A stretch of DNA of 10,623 bases from Syntrophomonadaceae bacterium (GTDB lineage: Bacteria; Bacillota; Syntrophomonadia; Syntrophomonadales; Syntrophomonadaceae). Of this stretch, positions 999-10,623 are shown piece by piece. How positions within the stretch are numbered: the stretch's first letter is position 1; every line of letters starts with the position of its first letter. The stretch lies in contig DAOPZM010000018.1 of assembly GCA_035353375.1 (NCBI GenBank), positions 26,713 to 37,335 of the forward strand. Direction: 5' to 3'. The notes under the pieces were generated by a model. The model saw only the letters and a program-made list of their open reading frames with translations, was not told the origin of the DNA and did no database searches. A program made the translations under genes and the position numbers.

Positions 999-1367
999 AT
1001 GATCAGAGTCCAGTCGATTGAAAAGTGTGACTGTGATGTAATTCATGAGGATATCGTTGCGCAGGTGAAAAATATAATGCCTGAGGAAGAGACTCTTTAT
1101 GATCTGGCTGAATTGTTTAAAGTTTTTGGCGATACAACCAGAATAAAGATTCTATGGGCATTGGATTCAGCTGAAATGTGTGTCTGTGACATTGCTTATT
1201 TGTTGAATATGACCCAATCAGCCATTTCACATCAATTAAGAGTACTGAAGCAGGCCAAGCTGGTTAAAAACCGCAGAGAAGGGAAAATAGTTTTCTACTC
1301 GCTGGATGATGAGCATATAAAGCAAATATTTGAACTGGGTTTAATTCATATTTCCGAGGAAGAATAA
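999..1367 (+). CDS. cadC: ArsR/SmtB-family metal-sensing transcriptional repressor, CadC-like (thiolate alpha3N site plus alpha5 site)
   Basis: 122-aa ORF with a GGGAGG Shine-Dalgarno sequence 8 nt upstream. The winged-helix core is LAELFKVFGDTTRIKILWAL...MCVCDIAYLLNMTQSAISHQLRVLKQAKLV. N-terminal Cys pair in EKCDCD plus CVC in helix alpha3 form the alpha3N Cd/Pb/Zn site. The C-terminal DEHIKQIFELGLIHISE fits the alpha5 pattern DxHx10Hx2E. It is translationally adjacent to a P1B ATPase. Confidence 0.88.
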   Translation: MIRVQSIEKCDCDVIHEDIVAQVKNIMPEEETLYDLAELFKVFGDTTRIKILWALDSAEMCVCDIAYLLNMTQSAISHQLRVLKQAKLVKNRREGKIVFYSLDDEHIKQIFELGLIHISEEE

Positions 1368-1384
1368 ACCCTGGAGGACTGATA

Positions 1385-3307
1385 ATGTTGAAGCAGGATG
1401 AAGCAGCGGTTGCAGCCAGAATTGAAGCGAATAAAAACCCGGGCGACGAGGACAAATCAAATTTAAAAAAACAGGCAGTGATATTTTTATTCGGCGGAAC
1501 TTTATTTGCAGCCGGGGCGATTTTTACTTTCCCGGTTGGTCTGGAACTTACCGTATTCCTGCTGAGCTATTTGATTGTCGGCGGAAGCGTCATTTGGCGG
1601 GCAGTTAAAGGTATAGTCAGGGGGCAGGTGTTTAGTGAGCACTTCCTGATGAGTGTTGCTACGATTGGGGCTTTTTGTGTTGGGGCCTATTCTGAGGGGG
1701 CAGCTGTCATGCTGTTCTATCTGGTGGGTGAGATGTTTCAGGATATGGCGGTTGATCATTCCCGGAAATCGATTGGGATATTAATGGATATCAGACCGGA
1801 TTATGCCAATCTTAAAATTGGTGACGAAATAAAAAAGGTATCTCCTGAAGAAGTTTTATGCGGCGAAATAATAATCGTAAAGCCGGGCGAAAAGGTCCCC
1901 CTTGACGGCAGGGTCACAGAAGGAAAATCGATGGCCGATACATCTGCATTGACCGGCGAATCAGTCCCGCGCGCATTGGAACCCGGATGTGAGGTCTTAA
2001 GCGGATTTATAAATAATAATGGTGTTTTAACGGTTGAAGTGACTAAAACATACAGTGAATCAACTGTGGCCAGGATTTTGGATCTGGTTGAAAATGCCGG
2101 CAGCAGGAAAGCTCCCACCGAGGATTTTATAACAAAATTCGCCGGGTATTATACGCCGGTGGTGGTGTTTGGAGCGTTGGCACTGGCAATCATACCGCCT
2201 TTGGCAATCCCCGGGGCAGCTTTTTCTGACTGGATATACCGGTCCCTGATATTCCTGGTGATTTCTTGTCCCTGTGCATTAGTGATTTCCATTCCCCTGG
2301 GATTTTTCGGGGGGATCGGCGGAGCTTCCAAAAGAGGCATACTGGTAAAGGGCAGCAACTATCTGGAAGCTTTGAATAAAGTGGAGACAGTTGTTTTTGA
2401 CAAGACCGGCACATTAACCAAAGGTGTATTTAAAGTTACAGAAATAAATCCGCAAAATAATTATACCGGGGAAGAGCTCATCGAATACGCAGCTTATGCT
2501 GAGAGCTATTCCAACCACCCGATCGCGCTTTCAATCATAGAGGCATATAAGGCTGAACCAGATAAAAACCGGATTGAAAATTATGAAGAAATTGCCGGTC
2601 ATGGCATCAAGGTAACTGTCGACGGCCAAGAAGTTCTGGCCGGAAACAGCTGGCTGATGGCTGCTGAAAACATCAAATACAGCGAAGCTTGCGCGGCAGG
2701 GACAGTGATACATGTGGCAATAAACAAGGTGTATGCCGGTCATATTGTGGCAGCAGATGAAGTAAAGGAAGATGCTGCCCTGGCCATTAAAGAGCTTAAA
2801 GCCCTGGGGGTCAGGAAAACGGTAATGCTTACCGGAGATTTAAAAAGTATCGGCGACAGGGTCGGCCGGCAATTAGGCTTGGATGAGGTTTATGCTGAAT
2901 TACTGCCGGCTGACAAAGTCGATAAACTTGAAATACTGGAGAACCAAAAATCCCGTAAAGGGAAGGTGGCTTTCGTTGGTGACGGCATAAACGATGCCCC
3001 GGTTTTAGCCAGAGCGGATATCGGCATAGCCATGGGAGGACTTGGTTCGGATGCGGCGATTGAAGCTGCAGACATTGTAATTATGAACGATCAACCATCC
3101 AATATTGCAACTGCCATAAAAGTTGCCCGCCGAACCAGGAACATAGTATTGCAGAACATCGTATTTGCCCTGGGAGTTAAAGCTGCATTCCTGGTATTGG
3201 GCGGAGCAGGTCTGGCTACCATGTGGGAAGCAGTATTTGCGGATGTGGGGGTAGCATTGCTGGCGGTTTTTAATGCTATGAGGGTTATGTATACCAAAAG
3301 CATATAA
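1385..3307 (+). CDS. cadA: Heavy-metal-translocating P1B-2-type ATPase (Zn2+/Cd2+/Pb2+ exporter) lacking an N-terminal HMA metal-binding domain
   Basis: 640-aa ORF with a GGAGGA Shine-Dalgarno sequence 6 nt upstream. Motifs present: TGES (SALTGESVP), CPC in TM6 (ISCPCALVISIP), DKTGTLT, SNHP, GDGINDAP, and the TM7/TM8 signatures NIVFALGVK (Nx7K) and DVGVALLAVFN (DxGx7N). The N-terminus (MLKQDEAAVAARIEANKNPGDEDK...) has no CxxC motif or His-rich stretch. Confidence 0.92.
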   Translation: MLKQDEAAVAARIEANKNPGDEDKSNLKKQAVIFLFGGTLFAAGAIFTFPVGLELTVFLLSYLIVGGSVIWRAVKGIVRGQVFSEHFLMSVATIGAFCVGAYSEGAAVMLFYLVGEMFQDMAVDHSRKSIGILMDIRPDYANLKIGDEIKKVSPEEVLCGEIIIVKPGEKVPLDGRVTEGKSMADTSALTGESVPRALEPGCEVLSGFINNNGVLTVEVTKTYSESTVARILDLVENAGSRKAPTEDFITKFAGYYTPVVVFGALALAIIPPLAIPGAAFSDWIYRSLIFLVISCPCALVISIPLGFFGGIGGASKRGILVKGSNYLEALNKVETVVFDKTGTLTKGVFKVTEINPQNNYTGEELIEYAAYAESYSNHPIALSIIEAYKAEPDKNRIENYEEIAGHGIKVTVDGQEVLAGNSWLMAAENIKYSEACAAGTVIHVAINKVYAGHIVAADEVKEDAALAIKELKALGVRKTVMLTGDLKSIGDRVGRQLGLDEVYAELLPADKVDKLEILENQKSRKGKVAFVGDGINDAPVLARADIGIAMGGLGSDAAIEAADIVIMNDQPSNIATAIKVARRTRNIVLQNIVFALGVKAAFLVLGGAGLATMWEAVFADVGVALLAVFNAMRVMYTKSI

Positions 3308-5279: not shown

Positions 5280-5309
5280 TTGCAAAAAAAAGTTAGCTTA
5301 TGTTATAAT
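5280..5309 (+). promoter_or_regulatory. Strong sigma-A-type promoter with extended -10
   Basis: TTGCAA (5280-5285), an 18-nt spacer, then TGtTATAAT (TG at 5301-5302, TATAAT at 5304-5309). No protein-coding gene follows it for ~950 nt. Confidence 0.65.
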
Positions 5310-5316
5310 ACATTTA

Positions 5317-5520
5317 GTCCGAAAGGATAAAAAAGATCTTAATGACCTGCCAGGGGAGCGTACAAGGGTTGCTTGACTGGCGTAAAAAGGAAACTAGGAT
5401 ATGTAGTCGGGCGTACCATAGTTGCTCGGTTACAAACTAGTGGTGGGTTCTCTTTAATGAGAACCTGATCATTAGAGAAAATTAACATCCCATCACTGAA
5501 AAGTGGTGGGATTTTTAATT
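5317..5520 (+). ncRNA. ~200-nt structured leader or small RNA with mutually exclusive antiterminator/terminator pairings; RNA class unassigned
   Basis: It starts at the predicted +1 of the 5280 promoter and ends at an intrinsic terminator. GTGGTGGG occurs twice (5440-5447 and 5503-5510), and both copies can pair with CCCATCAC (5489-5496). There is a perfect GGTTCTC/GAGAACC hairpin at 5446-5465. It contains an internal imperfect tandem duplication (GCGTAC..GTTGCT..AAACTAG appears twice). It shares the decamer TTAACATCCC with element 3 (5482-5491 vs 6014-6023). Confidence 0.5.
5487..5520 (+). terminator. Rho-independent terminator of leader 1
   Basis: A 10-bp stem ATCCCATCAC / GTGGTGGGAT (one G-U pair), loop TGAAAA, followed by TTTTTAATTT. 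Confidence 0.7.
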
Positions 5521-5749
5521 TGGAATCAGTAAAGAAGCGGACTTTTGACCATTTTATCAACTGCAGCAACAGCAGGACCATATGCTGGTAACCGCATTTC
5601 GCCCGGAGTTGACAGACGATTTAAGGATCCATAAGTATTTCCCGGGTATGGGCTGAAGTGTTCAAAATATCCAAAATTAAAAATATTGAAACTTTTTATA
5701 TTATGCAGGAACAAAATGTATACTTGTCGAAAAAGCTTATAATAAAAAA

Positions 5750-5850
5750 TATGCTCCGAGCCTTTTGACCTAAAGTTTTTTAGCTACGGTTTTCAGGCCG
5801 TCAGGGTGCATTCGGAAACGGGTGTGCCTCCCATTGTGGAAAGGAGAAGC
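5750..5850 (+). promoter_or_regulatory. Moco (molybdenum/tungsten cofactor) riboswitch aptamer, Moco RNA motif
   Basis: The three conserved strings I associate with the Moco RNA motif occur in the correct order: CUCCGAGCC (5754-5762), GCCUCCC (5826-5832) and GGAAAGG (5838-5844). A hairpin capped by a GAAA tetraloop immediately precedes GCCUCCC (CATTCG-GAAA-CGGGTG, 5809-5824). CCUUUU (5761-5766) can pair with GAAAGG (5839-5844). A TATAAT -10 box lies at 5738-5743, with a poor -35. Confidence 0.68.
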
Positions 5851-5866
5851 TGTATCAGGCCTGATT

Positions 5867-5904
5867 AAAGGCGGATTGCTTGTCGCAATCCGCCTTTATT
5901 GTTT
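5867..5904 (+). terminator. Rho-independent terminator (expression platform of riboswitch element 2)
   Basis: A perfect 13-bp stem AAAGGCGGATTGC / GCAATCCGCCTTT, loop TTGTC, followed by ATTGTTT. Confidence 0.8.
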
Positions 5905-5944
5905 ATCCGGCCATTGATGTAATATAAATAAAAATTTAATTTGT

Positions 5945-6040
5945 TGTTTCGAGTCTTTCTTCCTGCAGCCATCCTGGTATGGAAAAAGACCAATGTGCTA
6001 ACCCGGAAACAGGTTAACATCCCGCTTGGAAAGGAGCAAT
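5945..6040 (+). promoter_or_regulatory. Second, more divergent Moco-riboswitch-like aptamer
   Basis: Its layout is colinear with element 2. It has UUUCGAGUC (5947-5955) where element 2 has CUCCGAGCC. It has a hairpin with a GAAA tetraloop, TAACCCG-GAAA-CAGGTTA (6000-6017). This is followed by ACAUCCC (6017-6023), a 4-nt linker, and GGAAAGGAG (6028-6036). Confidence 0.42.
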
Positions 6041-6058
6041 TTTATTTAAATATTTTTC

Positions 6059-6093
6059 AGCTGGGATGGTTTTCTGTCCCAGCTTCTTTATTT
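6059..6093 (+). terminator. Rho-independent terminator (expression platform of element 3)
   Basis: Stem AGCTGGGA / TCCCAGCT (6059-6066 / 6077-6084), a 10-nt loop, followed by TCTTTATTT. Confidence 0.65.
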
Positions 6094-6174
6094 GAGAAGG
6101 AAGGAGCGGTAATAAACTTATATTCTGCAATTAAGGCCATGATTGAAGAGTACTCAGGAAAGTTGTGCCTTATA

Positions 6175-6217
6175 AATATTCTGTTGCCAAACTGATTTGG
6201 CTCAGCGGCAGAATATT
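6175..6217 (+). promoter_or_regulatory. Compound stem-loop in the 5' UTR just upstream of the surface-protein Shine-Dalgarno sequence
   Basis: AATATTCTG..GCC (6175-6188) pairs with GGCAGAATATT (6207-6217). This encloses a perfect inner hairpin GCCAAA-CTGA-TTTGGC (6186-6201). No U-tract follows, so it is not a terminator. Confidence 0.35.
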
Positions 6218-6258: not shown

Positions 6259-8469
6259 ATGCATAGGATGACGAAAAAATTATCAGGAATTTTTTTATTA
6301 ACGATGCTGGTATTATTGCCGGTCTTATGGGGCTCTGATGAAGCAAGCGCAGCAAGTACCAGCCTTACGGTTACAAAGCTTGCTTCTGATGGTGAGACTG
6401 TCATCGCCGAGAGAACTGTTGATTATGAGTGGCTCATGGATCCTGACAATATAAGAGTAATGGGGGACGGAAATACCCATTATTATCACCAGGGACCGGT
6501 ATTTATCGACGACCCTGATGAACAGGCCGAAGAACAGCTGCGCTGGAATCCGGAGGAAGATACAAACGTAGAGGACAAGGATATGGGAGCTGTAATGGGT
6601 ACCAATGTTGAAGATCTCTGCGAGCTGGTCGGAGGTATGTCGCGCGGTGAAACATTACAGATTAAAGCCAGTGACGGTCTTAAAAAAATGTTTGATTATG
6701 AAAATGTGTACGGCTATTCCAGCAAGGAAGGGCCTATGGTTGTCTGCTGGTATAAAGACGGCATGTACCCGGACACCGGATATAGCGACGGCATGCGGCT
6801 GGTCTGGTTTGCCGATGATTCCACCAACCCTTGGGGAATCAACGTTTTCGGCAATTGGGACTGGCACGAAGCTGCTGATTCTGAATACTGGTATTATTAT
6901 CGCAGCGGCGGTGAAAGTTATCCAACTACCACCGGACTTTCGATACAAAATGTTGCTTATTTGACCATTTACAGCAATGAAGACCCGCCTAAAGAACCGG
7001 AAGCTGATTTTAAAGCGGACAAAACCTCCGGTTATGCACCTCTTTCCGTCAAATTTACTGACAAGTCTGCTAATTCTCCCAGTGAATATGAATGGGACTT
7101 TGATAATGACGGTAAGGTAGATTCTACCGATCAAAACCCGAGCTTTAAATACAGTGAACCGGGAGTCTATACAGTCTGTCTTACTGCAGCCAATAGTATC
7201 GGCAGCGACGAGATGGTTAAGGCCGATTACATTACAGTCAGGGAAAAACCGTCAACCAAGACCCTGTTCAATGGCACGGTGGATTTGACATCAGGAAAAA
7301 CTATAAACGTGACGGCCTATAACTCAAATTCAAAATATGAGGTGAGTGAGACAACGACCCTGGGTGCGCTTGCAGCAGCAGCCGATGAGAAAAACTTCGA
7401 TTATGAAGTTACGGATAAAAAATATTCACAGTCGGGCGTGCTTCTCCTGGATGAGATCGAGAGTTATATAAGCGATGATCCCGGGGACTGGTATGTTTAT
7501 ATCAATGATGTTTATAAAGACAGCTACAATAAAAAATCTCACGCTTTAAACCTGCTTGAACTTAAAGATGGTGACGAAGTTGATTTCTACTATGCAGAGG
7601 ATATTAACGATCCGGATGATATTGATGATGTTGAGTATTGGGCATCAGCCGCAATAAAAATTGCTGTGTCGATCAGTGAGGCTGCCAGCAAGCCGGTTGC
7701 AGCTTTTACTGCCGCCCCTGTCAATGGTACGGAACCTCTGACAGTCAGTTTTATCAACCAGTCTACCGGTACTGGACCGTTAACTTATGAATGGGATTTT
7801 GACAATGACGGGCTGGCAGACTCCACTGACCGTAATCCGGAATATATTTATAAGACTGCCGGGACTTACACGGTCAAACTGACAGTAACTAATGAAGCCG
7901 GCAGCGATGAGGAAATCAAGACGGGCTATATTACGGCCAAAGCTTCGGATATAGCTGCATTATATGACATTGCCGGACACTGGGCCCAGGGGAGTATAGA
8001 AAGTCTGTTGGCCTCAGGAGCTGTCAGCGGCTATCCTGACAATAGCTTCAGGCCGGATGCGACAATTACCCGGGGCGAGTTTGTCACTATCCTGGTAAAA
8101 GCTTTCAAACTCGAACCTGGGACCGGAAAATTATTCACAGATACGACCGGCCACTGGGCCAAAGACTATATTTCTGCTGCCGCAGCGCTGGGGATTGTAA
8201 ATGGTTACGATGTAAATTGCTTTGGCCCCGATGACCTGATCACCCGGGAACAGATGGCAGTGATGATTATCAAAGCGCTGGATATCGGACTGATACCCGG
8301 TGACCCTGCATTTTCCGACCAGACCAGCATCTCTGACTGGGCAAAAAGTTCAGTAAAAACGGCCGGCGAGGAAGGGATTTTATCGGGGTATCCGGATAAC
8401 ACCTTCCGTCCGCAGGGTAATGCAACCAGGGCAGAGGCGGTGATGGTAATTGCAAAGGCTTTGGAATAA
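6259..8469 (+). CDS. Sec-exported, SLH-anchored multidomain cell-surface protein. Domain order: signal peptide, ~210-aa N-terminal domain (sulfite-oxidase-family-like pattern), PKD, DUF4430-like, PKD, 3x SLH.
   Basis: 736-aa ORF with an AGGAGG Shine-Dalgarno sequence 8 nt upstream. Domains by nucleotide range:
- Signal peptide: MHRMTKKLSGIFLLTMLVLLPVLWGSDEASA, with no twin-arginine motif.
- N-terminal domain: ~6355-6990.
- PKD 1: ~7000-7240 (PLSVKFTDKS...WDFDNDGKVDS...NPSFKYSEPGVYTVCLTAANSIGSDE).
- DUF4430-like: ~7261-7600 (TTLGAL...GDWYVYINDV...LKDGDEVDFYYAE).
- PKD 2: ~7693-7940.
- Three SLH repeats: ~7966-8466 (DIAGHWAQ..., FTDTTGHWAKDYI..., FSDQTSISDWAKSSV...GYPDNTFRPQGNATRAEA). Confidence 0.9.
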   Translation: MHRMTKKLSGIFLLTMLVLLPVLWGSDEASAASTSLTVTKLASDGETVIAERTVDYEWLMDPDNIRVMGDGNTHYYHQGPVFIDDPDEQAEEQLRWNPEEDTNVEDKDMGAVMGTNVEDLCELVGGMSRGETLQIKASDGLKKMFDYENVYGYSSKEGPMVVCWYKDGMYPDTGYSDGMRLVWFADDSTNPWGINVFGNWDWHEAADSEYWYYYRSGGESYPTTTGLSIQNVAYLTIYSNEDPPKEPEADFKADKTSGYAPLSVKFTDKSANSPSEYEWDFDNDGKVDSTDQNPSFKYSEPGVYTVCLTAANSIGSDEMVKADYITVREKPSTKTLFNGTVDLTSGKTINVTAYNSNSKYEVSETTTLGALAAAADEKNFDYEVTDKKYSQSGVLLLDEIESYISDDPGDWYVYINDVYKDSYNKKSHALNLLELKDGDEVDFYYAEDINDPDDIDDVEYWASAAIKIAVSISEAASKPVAAFTAAPVNGTEPLTVSFINQSTGTGPLTYEWDFDNDGLADSTDRNPEYIYKTAGTYTVKLTVTNEAGSDEEIKTGYITAKASDIAALYDIAGHWAQGSIESLLASGAVSGYPDNSFRPDATITRGEFVTILVKAFKLEPGTGKLFTDTTGHWAKDYISAAAALGIVNGYDVNCFGPDDLITREQMAVMIIKALDIGLIPGDPAFSDQTSISDWAKSSVKTAGEEGILSGYPDNTFRPQGNATRAEAVMVIAKALE

Positions 8470-8612: not shown

Positions 8613-10623
8613 ATGGACAACCTGATAAAGAAAACTTTGGGAATACTGCTGGTCGCATTTATGCTTTTGATAACGGTAGTATTATCACCGGCAGAAGCAA
8701 GCGTAACAGCAGGGACAACCAGCCTTACCATCAAAAAGCTTGCTAATGACGGAACGACTGTTTTAAGCCAGAAGACTGTCACCTATCAGGAGTTAATGGC
8801 CGGGGAACTTAATGATGACACGGTTATACCCATATTAGGCGATGGAACTACTCATTATTATCACCAGGGACCGGTATTTGTCGACGATCCTGATGAGGCA
8901 ACCGAACAGACGCTTCGCTGGAATCAAGCGGAAGATACCAGTGTCCTGACTAAGGATATGGGGGCTGTCAAGGGTACCAATGTGAAGGACCTCTGTGACT
9001 TGGTCGGAGGTATGGTAACAGGTGATACATTACAAATTAAAGCCAGTGACGGTCTTAAGAAAACGTTTGCTTATGAAAATGTGTACGGATACTCGGTTCG
9101 TGAGGGGCCAATGGCGATATGCTGGTATAAGGACGGAGGAACTCCTGAAACAACCTATACCGAGGGCATGCGCCTGGTCTGGTTTGCCGATGATTCAGTC
9201 AACACATTGGGTGAGGGCGGAGCAGGTGTTCATGCCTTCGGCAACTGGGACTGGCACGAAGCTGCGGCTGAACAATACTGGTACTTTTACACGGATACTA
9301 CAGTAACAGGAACAGGAACTGAAACTGAATATTACCCTACCACAACCGGCCTGTCTGTACAAAAAGTTTCCGAATTGATTATATTAAGTGATGAAGAACC
9401 GCCGGCGCCGACAGCTGCCTTTACATCCGATGTACAATCCGGTGCAGCACCGCTGACAGTCAGCTTCACTGACCAGTCCACCTATAATCCCACTTCTTGG
9501 GCCTGGGATTTCAATAATGACAGTACGGTGGATTCTACCGAACAGAACCCCGAGTTTACTTATGAAACAGCCGGGACCTATACGGTTAAAATGACAGCGA
9601 CCAATGCAAAAGGCAACGATGAAGAGATAAAGACTGACTACATTACAGTAAGTCCTGCTCATGCTGACTTCCCCATACAGTTAATCGGTACGTCAACTGT
9701 TGACATGAGTAAAGCCGATATGGAAGGATTGCTTAATACAGCCAATACTTATACCGATAGCAACGGTAATATTTTTGCAGGCGTACCATTACAGCAACTG
9801 ATCGCTAAAGTGGATGATAATGATACTGCCACATTAAATACTTCACTTTTGGGAACCTATAATATTGTGTTTACAGGTTTGAACCAGGATGGGACCGACT
9901 TTGTTAAAACCGCGGCAGCAGGCAGTTGGAGTACCATGATTACGGATGGGAATATCCAGACCAATGACGTGTTTGTCGCTACCAAGGTAAAGATCGGTGG
10001 AACCGGTGAATTTGCCGATCTGCCACTTGTAAGTGTCAACAATGCAACTAAAAACTGGCGCCCAGGTATTTTGAACGGCAGCGGGATAACCGGATCAGGA
10101 AACCGCATCGGCGGGTTATACAAAATCGAATTGACTGGTCTTGCGGCGGTAGCACCGACAGCTGCCTTCACATCCGATGTACAATCCGGTGCAGCACCGC
10201 TGACGGTCAGCTTTACTGACCAGTCCACCGGAACCCCGACATCATGGGCCTGGGATTTCAATAATGACAGTACGGTGGATTCTACCGAACAGAATCCCGA
10301 ATTTACTTATGAAACAGCCGGGACCTATACGGTTAAACTGACAGCGACCAATACTGAAGGCAACGATGAAGAGATAAAGAATGACTACATTACGGTTACT
10401 GAAGCATCGACCATGGACGTACTGTATGACGGAACAGTTGCTTTAACACTTAATAAAACCTTCGATGTGACGGCTTACAACTCGTCTGCTTCTTATACAG
10501 TCGATGAAACTACCCCGTTGGGAGCACTACAGGCAACCGGCTTGACCTATGGAGTAACAGATAAGAATTATGCAAGCTCAGGAGCTTTGCTATTGGACAA
10601 TGTAGGAACTTATCTGCGTGATA
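8613..10623 (+). CDS. Paralogous Sec-exported multidomain surface protein, 3'-truncated by the window edge. Domain order: signal peptide, same N-terminal domain, PKD, second diverged molybdopterin-oxidoreductase-like domain, PKD, DUF4430-like...
   Basis: My own translation from the ATG at 8613 (GAGGGGAG Shine-Dalgarno sequence 7 nt upstream) is open through 10623: MDNLIKKTLGILLVAFMLLITVVLSPAEASVTAGTTSLTIKKLANDGTTVLSQKTVTYQELM...GDGTTHYYHQGPVFVDDPDE...LQIKASDGLKKTFAYENVYGY...GMRLVWFADDS...FGNWDWHEAA...YPTTTGLSVQKV... PKD domains lie at ~9411-9650 and ~10158-10397. A middle domain lies at ~9660-10140 (GVPLQQLIAKV...IVFTGLNQDGTDF...GGLYKIELTG). A DUF4430-like start follows (VLYDGTVALTLNKTFDVTAYN...TTPLGALQATGLTYGVTDKNY...). 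It is absent from the ORF track because no stop codon lies in the window. Confidence 0.88.
   Translation, partial: MDNLIKKTLGILLVAFMLLITVVLSPAEASVTAGTTSLTIKKLANDGTTVLSQKTVTYQELMAGELNDDTVIPILGDGTTHYYHQGPVFVDDPDEATEQTLRWNQAEDTSVLTKDMGAVKGTNVKDLCDLVGGMVTGDTLQIKASDGLKKTFAYENVYGYSVREGPMAICWYKDGGTPETTYTEGMRLVWFADDSVNTLGEGGAGVHAFGNWDWHEAAAEQYWYFYTDTTVTGTGTETEYYPTTTGLSVQKVSELIILSDEEPPAPTAAFTSDVQSGAAPLTVSFTDQSTYNPTSWAWDFNNDSTVDSTEQNPEFTYETAGTYTVKMTATNAKGNDEEIKTDYITVSPAHADFPIQLIGTSTVDMSKADMEGLLNTANTYTDSNGNIFAGVPLQQLIAKVDDNDTATLNTSLLGTYNIVFTGLNQDGTDFVKTAAAGSWSTMITDGNIQTNDVFVATKVKIGGTGEFADLPLVSVNNATKNWRPGILNGSGITGSGNRIGGLYKIELTGLAAVAPTAAFTSDVQSGAAPLTVSFTDQSTGTPTSWAWDFNNDSTVDSTEQNPEFTYETAGTYTVKLTATNTEGNDEEIKNDYITVTEASTMDVLYDGTVALTLNKTFDVTAYNSSASYTVDETTPLGALQATGLTYGVTDKNYASSGALLLDNVGTYLRD
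9408..9650 (+). repeat. Copy A of a ~243-bp intragenic direct repeat (a whole PKD module)
   Basis: It aligns without gaps to 10155-10397. By eye I count ~20 mismatches, about 92% identity. The offset is 747 bp (249 codons), so the copies are in frame. Confidence 0.85.
10155..10397 (+). repeat. Copy B of the ~243-bp intragenic direct repeat (PKD module)
   Basis: Same alignment as copy A. Mismatches cluster in one ~15-nt patch (TATAATCCCACTTCT vs GGAACCCCGACATCA) and in a second short patch (GCAAAA vs ACTGAA). Confidence 0.85.

What the first reader, a model, noticed from the sequence alone, without database searches (positions are those of the whole stretch)
5738..6093. Two Moco-riboswitch-type aptamers in series, each with its own intrinsic terminator
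Element 2 (5750-5850) carries CUCCGAGCC, a GAAA-capped hairpin, GCCUCCC and GGAAAGG in the order of the Moco RNA motif, and is followed by a perfect 13-bp terminator. About 40 nt later a colinear but diverged copy appears (UUUCGAGUC, GAAA-capped hairpin, ACAUCCC, GGAAAGGAG), followed by a second terminator. Serial same-class riboswitches are uncommon and give a steeper, more switch-like response. The two copies differ in the conserved core, which raises the possibility of different ligand preference. Molybdenum- versus tungsten-cofactor specificity has been linked in the literature to structural variants of this motif.
Basis: partly seen in the sequence, partly recalled or inferred. Interest (0 to 1): 0.8.

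Follow-up and report, generated by a model that had tools for sequence, protein, structure and literature searches.

The report
Tandem tungsten-cofactor riboswitches before tungstate-uptake operon
Two real Moco/tungsten-cofactor-type riboswitches, each with its own terminator, sit in series before a cell-surface-protein and tungstate-transporter operon of a Syntrophomonadaceae bacterium; this serial arrangement is already documented for this riboswitch class in this bacterial family.

Summary
Rfam RF01055 matches window 5742-5862 (80 bits) and 5935-6052 (50.4 bits), against a gathering score of 36. Each aptamer is followed by an intrinsic terminator, at 5866-5898 and 6059-6084. Orthologous leaders in other Syntrophomonadaceae MAGs keep the aptamers and terminators. 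Twenty-four related aptamers show strong covariation: 21 of 29 pairs change on both sides.

The idea that the two copies sense different ligands is not supported. Both lack P3, the published signature of tungsten-cofactor (Tuco/Wco) sensing. The "core" differences in copy 2 preserve structure: G-U wobbles in P1 and a compensated U5996-A6019 pair in P4.

Both units read as OFF switches, because each terminator's 5' arm can instead pair with aptamer sequence. In series they would give a steeper, deeper shut-off.

The operon encodes two SLH/PKD surface proteins, further genes, and wtpABC (tungstate uptake), so the logic is feedback repression.

Tandem and triple P3-less Moco RNAs with terminators were reported in Syntrophomonas wolfei in 2008 and catalogued in 2022. 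This is a new member of a known kind.

The side findings are more interesting:
- Orthologous leaders include a c-di-GMP-II riboswitch.
- The regulated proteins carry a PruR/sulfite-oxidase-like domain.
- An unclassified attenuator-like element lies upstream, at 5316-5520.

The parts
5742..5862 (+). Aptamer A: canonical P3-less Moco/Tuco (RF01055) aptamer
   Evidence: 80.0 bits against a gathering score of 36, E 1.5e-18, model positions 1-135 with P3 positions deleted. All conserved core strings are present. Orthologue in L007 at 9284-9403.
5866..5908 (+). Terminator T1: 14-bp perfect stem (5866-5879 / 5885-5898), 5-nt loop, T-rich tail
   Evidence: Hairpin energy -22.7 kcal/mol. Equivalent terminators with compensatory stem changes follow the A-type aptamers of L007 and L009.
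5754..5766 (+). Candidate antiterminator strand for unit A (CUCCGAGCCUUUU; pairs with 5866-5876). The alternative candidate is 5847-5862 pairing with 5869-5882.
   Evidence: RNAduplex -9.7 kcal/mol. The MFE of the prefix without the right arm instead pairs the linker after P1 with the left arm. Which of the two operates is not resolved; this part is inferred.
5935..6052 (+). Aptamer B: diverged but intact P3-less Moco/Tuco aptamer
   Evidence: 50.4 bits against 36, E 7e-10. Orthologues in L007 9747-9865, L009 9740-9858 and L005 3988-4107. Compensated P4 pair U5996-A6019.
6018..6033 (+). Candidate antiterminator strand for unit B (CAUCCCGCUUGGAAAG; pairs with 6053-6068)
   Evidence: with the right arm left out, the terminator's left arm pairs with the CCUCCC/GCU core in all four orthologues. 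L007 has a C->A change that makes a perfect CCAGC/GCUGG match.
6059..6094 (+). Terminator T2: 11-bp stem (6059-6069 / 6074-6084), 4-nt loop, T-rich tail
   Evidence: Hairpin energy -17.4 kcal/mol. Conserved after every B-type aptamer.
6259..8469 (+). First regulated gene: 736-aa secreted protein (Sec-type signal peptide, PruR/SUOX-like N-terminal domain, 2 PKD domains, 3 SLH domains)
   Evidence: (100% identical to a Syntrophomonadaceae MAG protein).
8613..10623 (+). Second regulated gene (paralogue, runs off the window; 2068 aa in L001). In L001/L007 it is followed by a purple-acid-phosphatase-like gene, an unknown gene, a PF00174 gene and wtpA, and in L007/L034 by wtpB and wtpC.
   Evidence: No convincing intergenic terminator along the operon.

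Best explanation
Two complete, independently acting riboswitches of the P3-less Moco RNA type (the type assigned to the tungsten cofactor, Tuco/Wco) lie in series in the leader of one operon. In each unit, the ligand-bound aptamer holds sequence that would otherwise pair with the 5' arm of the following terminator. The terminator therefore forms and transcription stops (OFF switch). Without ligand, an antiterminator forms and RNA polymerase reads through. A transcript must escape both terminators, so read-through is the product of the two escape probabilities. That gives tighter repression and a steeper ('pseudo-cooperative') response to the cofactor. The operon encodes two cell-wall-anchored surface proteins, further exported proteins and the WtpABC tungstate importer. 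The circuit is thus negative feedback: enough tungsten cofactor shuts off tungsten acquisition. Shown here: aptamer identity, terminators, conservation, covariation, and gene content. Inferred: OFF polarity, a single transcription unit, and ligand identity.
For: Identity: two RF01055 hits above the gathering score. RNAalifold on 7 aptamers independently recovers P1/P2/P4/P5, with 10 of 29 pairs compensated. On 24 aptamers, 88.4% of cells are paired against at most 51% when partners are slid, 21 of 29 pairs change on both sides, and 0 of 500 shuffles reach any measure.

Subtype: P3 is deleted in both. P3-less means Tuco-associated (PMC2408646; PMC11725836).

Platforms: terminators directly follow each aptamer and are conserved in orthologues. 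Left-arm/aptamer alternative pairings were found, conserved for unit B in 4 of 4 loci.

OFF polarity by analogy: in E. limosum, the Tuco aptamer-plus-terminator units (fetABC1, focA) were up-regulated under W limitation (PMC11725836).

Context: the operon is conserved in four lineages although the upstream flanks are not syntenic. WtpA scores 307.9 bits against a cut-off of 242.75; WtpB and WtpC are the best matches for the next two genes. Tandem aptamers are kept in L007 and L009, and occur in L015 and L040.

Precedent: doublets and a triplet of P3-less Moco RNAs with terminators in S. wolfei; Wco listed as a pseudo-cooperative tandem class.
Against: No transcription data are available. The promoter is not identified: sites at 5677-5704 and 5695-5724 are at chance level, and the only strong promoter, at 5280-5309, is followed by its own terminator at 5487-5512. 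An 8-of-12 promoter-like match, read by eye between T1 and aptamer B, cannot be excluded.

The antiterminator of unit A is ambiguous: there are two candidates, and the better local one overlaps P1 by only about 2 nt. Full-length MFE structures show aptamer-like folds and terminators together, so switching would have to be kinetic.

One orthologue (L005) has only one Moco-type aptamer, so the doublet is not obligatory. Direct Tuco binding has never been shown for any member of the class.
Confidence: 0.68

Rival explanations
1. Two-input NOR gate: the two aptamers have diverged to sense different ligands (for example Tuco versus Moco, or cofactor versus a precursor such as MPT), so the operon is on only when both are low.
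For: The promoter-distal 'B-type' aptamers form a distinct lineage. It has a U instead of the consensus A just before P4, and a CCUG(N)AG variant of the tetraloop-receptor strand, in six aptamers from six loci including the window's. WtpA-type transporters can carry molybdate as well as tungstate (my own knowledge; not checked here).
Against: Both lack P3, the only published specificity marker. The window-specific 'core' changes are compensated pairs or wobbles. Other tandems in related genomes (L015, L040) are A-type plus A-type, and L009's first aptamer is a mosaic of the two types. The doublet is therefore not systematically heterotypic.
Confidence: 0.1
2. The two units are not one device. 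Unit A with T1 acts separately, either as a stand-alone terminated riboswitch RNA or as insulation against read-through from the upstream promoter at 5280. Only unit B, driven by its own promoter, controls the operon.
For: In L007, unit A and unit B are about 340 nt apart. By my own reading of the sequences (no alignment was run), the stretch before L007's c-di-GMP-II aptamer resembles the region that must hold the promoter in L005. L005 lacks unit A altogether. No significant promoter is found just upstream of unit A in the window.
Against: In the window only 36 nt separate T1 from aptamer B, and no promoter-like site passes the scan there. Unit A and T1 are conserved with the operon in two lineages whose upstream flanks are unrelated. 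No ORF or other target follows T1.
Confidence: 0.12
3. Aptamer B in this genome is decaying and no longer binds ligand, so T2 is a constitutive attenuator or leaky terminator.
For: It has the lower Rfam score (50.4 against 80 bits), three substitutions at positions that are invariant in the other six aligned aptamers, and two mismatches in P4: C5998-A6017 and C6004-A6011.
Against: Every substitution at an otherwise invariant position keeps pairing, and one is a double compensatory change. The same C->A change extends the predicted antiterminator (GGGAUG/CAUCCC). The score is still 14 bits above the gathering score. Junction nucleotides, the GAAA loop and GGAAAGG are intact.
Confidence: 0.07

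Closest known systems
Tandem and triple P3-less Moco RNAs of Syntrophomonas wolfei (Regulski et al. 2008, PMC2408646), listed as pseudo-cooperative 'Wco' tandem riboswitches by Sherlock et al. 2022 (PMC9481103)
   Same: Same RNA family (RF01055), same P3-less subtype, same bacterial family, serial arrangement with an intrinsic terminator after the aptamers, a long gap before the first ORF, and an operon containing a molybdate/tungstate transporter plus genes of unknown function. P3-less RNAs were also noted there upstream of 'sulphite-oxidase-like' genes.
   Different: This is a different, uncultured species. The operon here is led by SLH/PKD surface proteins and contains wtpABC but no MPT-synthesis gene in the part seen. 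I did not establish whether the S. wolfei operon is orthologous. Orthologous leaders here also carry a c-di-GMP-II aptamer.
Tandem TPP riboswitches of Bacillus anthracis (Welz and Breaker 2007, as cited in PMC2408646 and PMC9481103)
   Same: Two complete same-class riboswitches, each with its own terminator, giving a more 'digital' response without true cooperativity.
   Different: Different ligand class. That system was tested biochemically; this one is inferred.
Single Tuco riboswitches of Eubacterium limosum (PMC11725836)
   Same: P3-less RF01055 aptamers controlling tungstate transport (tupABC) and other transporters. Terminator-type units are derepressed under W limitation.
   Different: Those are single aptamers. 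The transporter family is TupABC rather than WtpABC, and they are not associated with surface proteins.
SAM-I/AdoCbl tandem of Bacillus clausii metE (NOR gate; cited in PMC9481103)
   Same: Two OFF riboswitches in series with independent terminators.
   Different: That system has two different classes and ligands. Here both aptamers belong to one class and subtype.

Membership tests
Rfam RF01055 Moco/Tuco riboswitch aptamer | Covariance-model score at or above the curated gathering score (36 bits) over the full model | tested here: met
   80.0 and 50.4 bits, model positions 1-135 for both. The same result appears in L001.
Rfam RF01055 Moco/Tuco riboswitch aptamer | P1, P2, P4 and P5 helices supported by covariation | tested here: met
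   RNAalifold on a MAFFT alignment of 7 aptamers recovers the helices, with 10 of 29 pairs compensated; on 24 aptamers, 21 of 29 pairs change on both sides, 88.4% of cells are paired against at most 51% when slid, and 0 of 500 shuffles reach the observed values. Caveat: that alignment was fitted to the model.
Rfam RF01055 Moco/Tuco riboswitch aptamer | Conserved core strings (CUCCGAG, AGGG, CCUCCC, UGGAAAGG) and a GAAA tetraloop on P4 with a receptor in P2 | tested here: met
   Copy A matches throughout (receptor CCUAAAG/UACGG). Copy B has UUUCGAG, GUG and CAUCCC, all of which preserve pairing, an intact GAAA loop, and the receptor variant CCUGCAG/UAUGG that is shared by its orthologues.
Rfam RF01055 Moco/Tuco riboswitch aptamer | Location in the 5' leader of Mo/W cofactor-related genes, on the same strand | tested here: met
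   the operon holds wtpABC and PF00174 (molybdopterin-binding-fold) proteins. The aptamers lie 200-520 nt upstream of the first start codon.
Rfam RF01055 Moco/Tuco riboswitch aptamer | Direct, selective binding of Moco or Tuco | not testable with these tools
   The ligand is unstable, and binding has not been shown in vitro even for the type member (PMC2408646).
Tuco/Wco-sensing subtype (Regulski 2008 criterion) | Absence of the P3 stem | tested here: met
   model positions 59-73 are deleted in both copies. Only 4 nt (GUCA) and 3 nt (AAU) join P2 to P4.
Tuco/Wco-sensing subtype (Regulski 2008 criterion) | Host or operon carries tungsten-specific genes | tested here: met
   WtpA (TIGR03730) scores 307.9 bits against a cut-off of 242.75 in L007. 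The partial L001 copy scores 205 bits. WtpB and WtpC are the best hits for the next two genes, but both fall below the equivalog cut-offs.
Pseudo-cooperative tandem riboswitch (Sherlock et al. 2022 definition) | Two or more complete riboswitches of the same ligand class, each with its own expression platform, with no ORF between them | tested here: met
   The only ORF in the interval (5941-6195, 84 aa, TTG start) is a mechanical ORF overlapping aptamer B and T2. No gene is called there in any source.
Pseudo-cooperative tandem riboswitch (Sherlock et al. 2022 definition) | Both units lie on one transcript and respond to the same ligand with similar sensitivity | not testable with these tools
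   No expression or binding data. The promoter is unresolved.

The most novel reading that the evidence does not exclude
The riboswitches mark a previously uncharacterised extracellular tungsten- (or pterin-) acquisition system. It would consist of cell-wall-anchored proteins built on a roughly 215-aa PruR/sulfite-oxidase-like domain with no Pfam family, which is widespread in syntrophic Firmicutes and their methanogen partners, co-transcribed with wtpABC. In sister lineages the same leader also carries a c-di-GMP-II ON switch (Tuco - c-di-GMP-II - Tuco in L007; c-di-GMP-II - Tuco in L005). That would give a 'c-di-GMP AND NOT Tuco' gate, a combination absent from the parts of the 2022 catalogue I read. 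In the window itself, a third, unclassified attenuator at 5316-5520 may occupy the equivalent position.
Probability: 0.3. Interest if true: 0.65.

Novelty: new member of a known kind. Interest (0 to 1): 0.35.

Why it matters
The finding adds one more well-supported natural example of serial tungsten-cofactor riboswitches, which is useful but not surprising. What could matter more is the content of the regulon. It ties a large, unannotated family of secreted PruR/SUOX-like-domain proteins, found in syntrophs and methanogens, to tungsten homeostasis. It also shows that leaders of this operon are modular (Tuco, c-di-GMP-II, Tuco), which offers a natural multi-input RNA logic device to test.

Tried and rejected
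- **Different-ligand reading:** rejected as the main reading after mapping each copy-2 difference onto the structure.
- **ON-switch reading:** rejected because neither terminator's 5' arm overlaps the P1 3' strand by more than about 2 nt, and for unit B the arm pairs with the ligand-pocket core.
- **Thermodynamic folding:** full-length units do not show a clean two-state switch. The MFE contains both an aptamer-like fold and the terminator, so only prefix folds and duplex searches were informative.
- **Promoter search:** nothing above chance lies immediately upstream of aptamer A or between the units.
- **N-terminal domain of the 736-aa protein:** Pfam, NCBIfam and PDB sequence searches found nothing. 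Only the fold search and hhalign gave a lead.
- **Upstream structured element 5316-5520:** no Rfam family at E <= 1, and no homologue in the other fetched loci by blastn or nhmmer (88 loci searched; the only hits were the same-species copies L001-L004). I ran no further search on it, because the nearest relatives of this organism found here are only about 63% identical at protein level, so a 14-nt exact seed was unlikely to hit.
- **Further riboswitches inside the operon:** none found.
- **Internal terminators along the operon:** none convincing.

Full report

Yes. A full Rfam 15 scan of the window returns exactly two hits above gathering score, both to RF01055, the Molybdenum/Tungsten riboswitch aptamer (Moco RNA motif). 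They lie at 5742-5862 (+, 80.0 bits, E 1.5e-18) and 5935-6052 (+, 50.4 bits, E 7e-10), against a gathering score of 36, and both cover the whole model.

Each aptamer is followed within 4-7 nt by a terminator-like hairpin with a T-rich tail:
- T2: an 11-bp stem at 6059-6069 / 6074-6084.

The region holds 4 terminator-like sites where shuffles give 0.9 +/- 0.9.

**2. Where the window comes from, and what the leader controls.**

The downstream ORF (6259-8469, 736 aa) is 100% identical to a protein from Syntrophomonadaceae metagenome-assembled genomes. It has a Sec-type signal peptide without a twin-arginine motif (by reading), an N-terminal region of about 215 aa with no Pfam or NCBIfam match, two PKD domains and three SLH cell-wall-anchor domains.

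A paralogue starts at 8613 and runs off the window. Longer contigs carrying the same gene, and three orthologous contigs at about 60-63% protein identity, show a conserved operon:
- an SLH/PKD protein;
- a giant PKD/SLH protein of 1805-2318 aa containing a PF00174 domain (E 1.1e-13 in L007);
- a purple-acid-phosphatase-like protein;
- a protein of about 288 aa with unknown function;
- a 192-aa PF00174 (molybdopterin-binding oxidoreductase fold) protein;
- WtpA, scoring 307.9 bits on TIGR03730 against a cut-off of 242.75;
- WtpB and WtpC as best matches for the next two genes, though below the equivalog cut-offs.

The upstream flanks differ in every lineage, so the conserved unit begins at the riboswitch leader. 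No further riboswitch and no convincing terminator interrupts the operon.

**3. Conservation and covariation.**

The orthologous leaders carry RF01055 hits at the same place:
- L007: 9284-9403 and 9747-9865.
- L009: 9555-9672 and 9740-9858.
- L005: 3988-4107 only.

A MAFFT alignment of the seven aptamers, folded by RNAalifold without prior structure, reproduces P1, P2, P4 and P5, with 10 of 29 pairs compensated.

A covariance model built from these found 22 aptamers in 17 of 40 bacterial loci that encode the same N-terminal domain, and none in 39 archaeal loci. Those hits include the L005, L007 and L009 leaders again, refetched as L014, L023 and L010.

On the resulting 24-sequence alignment (these hits plus the window's two aptamers):
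- 88.4% of cells are paired, against at most 51% when partners are slid.
- 21 of 29 pairs show changes on both sides.
- No shuffle out of 500 reaches any measure.

That alignment is fitted to the model, which inflates pairing somewhat. The independent MAFFT/RNAalifold result points the same way.

**4. Do the two copies differ in a way that suggests different ligands?**

The evidence says no.

- The published structural marker for Mo- versus W-cofactor sensing is the P3 stem. P3-containing RNAs go with Moco genes and P3-less RNAs with Tuco genes (PMC2408646; used the same way in PMC11725836). Both copies here lack P3: model positions 59-73 are deleted, and only GUCA or AAU joins P2 to P4.
- The copy-2 'core' differences map onto helices and keep them.
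  - U5947 and U5949 pair with G6036 and G6034 as wobbles in P1.
  - The GGG->GUG and CCU->CAU changes are the two sides of one P4 pair, U5996-A6019, where the other six aptamers have G-C (columns 66-89: GC 6, UA 1).
  - GAGCC->GAGUC is matched by G->A across P2 and is shared by the whole promoter-distal ('B-type') lineage.
- Other doublets in related genomes (L015, L040) consist of two A-type aptamers, and L009's first aptamer is a mosaic of the two types. Doublets are therefore not systematically heterotypic.

A residual difference remains. B-type aptamers have U rather than the consensus A just before P4, and a CCUG(N)AG receptor variant. I therefore keep a different-ligand NOR gate as a rival at about 0.1.

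**5. Mechanism.**

Neither terminator's 5' arm overlaps the 3' strand of P1 in the way an ON switch needs.

*Unit B.* Folding the transcript up to, but not including, the terminator's right arm pairs the left arm (AGCUGGGAUG, 6059-6068) and the U-rich linker with the aptamer core CAUCCCGCU...GGAAAG (6018-6033). The same alternative pairing appears in all four orthologues. In L007 a C->A change in the aptamer removes the mismatch, giving CCAGC/GCUGG. Ligand binding would sequester that core and release the left arm to form the terminator, which makes the unit an OFF switch.

*Unit A.* There are two candidates. In one, the left arm AAAGGCGGA pairs with the 5' core UCCGAGCCUUU (-9.7 kcal/mol). 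In the other, the linker after P1 (5847-5862) pairs with 5869-5882. I cannot choose between them.

OFF polarity agrees with E. limosum, where the terminator-type Tuco units were derepressed under tungsten limitation (PMC11725836). It also agrees with the logic of repressing a tungstate importer when the cofactor is plentiful.

Two OFF terminators in series multiply their escape probabilities. This is the 'pseudo-cooperative' behaviour described for tandem riboswitches (PMC9481103).

Caveats:
- Full-length MFE folds contain aptamer and terminator together, so switching must be kinetic.
- The promoter is unresolved.
- No expression data exist.

**6. Comparison with what is known.**

Regulski et al. 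(2008) already reported tandem Moco RNAs in S. wolfei and G. metallireducens. They also reported a triple series of P3-less RNAs in a seven-gene S. wolfei operon (MPT synthesis, molybdate/tungstate transport, unknown genes). That triplet had terminators after the first two aptamers and a long gap before the first ORF, and the authors proposed 'digital' control by Tuco. They further noted P3-less RNAs upstream of 'sulphite-oxidase-like' genes in S. wolfei.

Sherlock et al. (2022) list Moco (13 doublets, 2 triplets) and Wco among pseudo-cooperative tandem classes.

The finding is therefore a new member of a known kind, in the same bacterial family where the phenomenon was first seen.

**7. What is less ordinary.**

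- *c-di-GMP-II in orthologous leaders.* L005 has c-di-GMP-II (57.7 bits, gathering score 53.5) followed by one Tuco-type unit. L007 has Tuco, then c-di-GMP-II (51.7 bits, just under the gathering score, E 2.4e-10), then Tuco, that is, three aptamers in series. By my reading, the 3' end of the c-di-GMP-II aptamer (ACCGGCC) doubles as the 5' arm of a short terminator-like hairpin followed by a U run. That would make it an ON switch and the leader a 'c-di-GMP AND NOT Tuco' gate. No Moco/Wco plus c-di-GMP pair appears in any passage of the 2022 catalogue that mentions Moco or Wco; its Table 2 was cut off in both outputs.
- *The N-terminal domain.* The domain of the regulated proteins (aa 31-245) models at pLDDT 92.5. 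Its only meaningful structural neighbours are PruR periplasmic pterin-binding proteins (7RKB, 7KOM, 7KOS; Foldseek probability 1.0, E 3e-3 to 3e-2, TM 0.42/0.60). A 40-residue stretch aligns at 96.8% hhalign probability to the operon's own PF00174 protein. The domain occurs at the N-terminus of many otherwise different secreted proteins of syntrophs, Dehalococcoidales and Methanomicrobiales.
- *An upstream element in the window.* The best promoter of the 1.3-kb intergenic region is TTGCAA-18-TGxTATAAT at 5280-5309. It is followed by a roughly 200-nt stretch (5316-5520) that folds at -76.4 kcal/mol, against -46.7 +/- 3.7 for shuffles (z = -8.0), and ends in a terminator at 5487-5512. An upstream copy of the terminator's right arm (UAGUGGUGGGU, 5438-5448) can pair with the left arm at -14.3 kcal/mol, a value that 5 of 500 shuffles reach. 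This is an attenuator-like layout with no Rfam match and no homologue in the fetched loci.

**8. Verdict.**

The novelty of the finding as stated is low. Interest is moderate only because of the regulon and the modular leaders seen in relatives.

Noticed in passing
window 5280-5520 (+): A strong sigma-70-like promoter (TTGCAA, 18-nt spacer, extended -10 TG, TATAAT; 5280-5309) is followed by a roughly 200-nt exceptionally stable structured stretch (MFE -76.4 against -46.7 +/- 3.7 kcal/mol for shuffles, z = -8.0). The stretch ends in a terminator (5487-5512 plus T5). An upstream repeat of the terminator's right arm (5438-5448) could form an antiterminator (-14.3 kcal/mol; 5 of 500 shuffles reach this). 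There is no Rfam family and no homologue in the fetched loci. It is either an unannotated small RNA or a third, unclassified attenuator in the same leader.
   Followed up: partly
L007 9284-9865 and L005 3837-4107 (orthologous leaders): A c-di-GMP-II riboswitch (RF01786) is combined in series with Moco/Tuco-type aptamers before the orthologous operon. L007 has Tuco, c-di-GMP-II (51.7 bits, gathering score 53.5), then Tuco. L005 has c-di-GMP-II (57.7 bits) then Tuco. The 3' end of the c-di-GMP aptamer overlaps a short terminator-like hairpin plus U run, which suggests an ON switch and a 'c-di-GMP AND NOT Tuco' gate. The combination does not appear in the parts of the 2022 tandem-riboswitch catalogue I read.
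   Followed up: partly
window 6349-6993 (aa 31-245 of the 736-aa protein); also 8700-9380 in the paralogue: A conserved secreted domain of about 215 aa has no Pfam or NCBIfam model. Its AF2 model (pLDDT 92.5) matches PruR pterin-binding proteins, and a segment matches the PF00174 fold. It sits at the N-terminus (sometimes in three copies) of many different multidomain exported proteins in Syntrophomonadaceae, Pelotomaculum, Desulfotomaculaceae, Dehalococcoidales and Methanomicrobiales. In 17 of 40 bacterial loci a Tuco-type aptamer is nearby.
   Followed up: partly
window 6120-6217 (+), between T2 and the start codon: The motif ATATTCTG occurs twice (6120-6127, 6176-6183), and its complement CAGAATAT occurs once (6209-6216). 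This gives a 9-bp perfect inverted repeat, 6175-6183 / 6209-6217, around a nested GCCAAA...TTTGGC hairpin. It could be an operator or an mRNA structure in the 165-nt gap. It is not conserved in L007, L009 or L005 by eye.
   Followed up: no
L007 778-863: A NiCo riboswitch (RF02683, 63.7 bits) lies upstream of a cation-efflux (PF01545) gene in the orthologous contig. It is unrelated to the finding.
   Followed up: no
window 999-3307 (+): An ArsR/SmtB metalloregulator gene (999-1367) is directly followed by a P1B-type heavy-metal ATPase gene (1385-3307; best match to the Cd/Zn family). This is a standard metal-efflux pair next to the tungsten locus.
   Followed up: no
L011 2279-2400 (-) and 2667-2786 (+); L015 3188-3489; L040 830-1269: There are further multiple Tuco-type aptamers in related MAGs: a divergent pair in L011, and same-strand doublets with terminators in L015 (before an SLH protein) and L040. 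Multi-aptamer leaders are therefore recurrent in this clade.
   Followed up: partly
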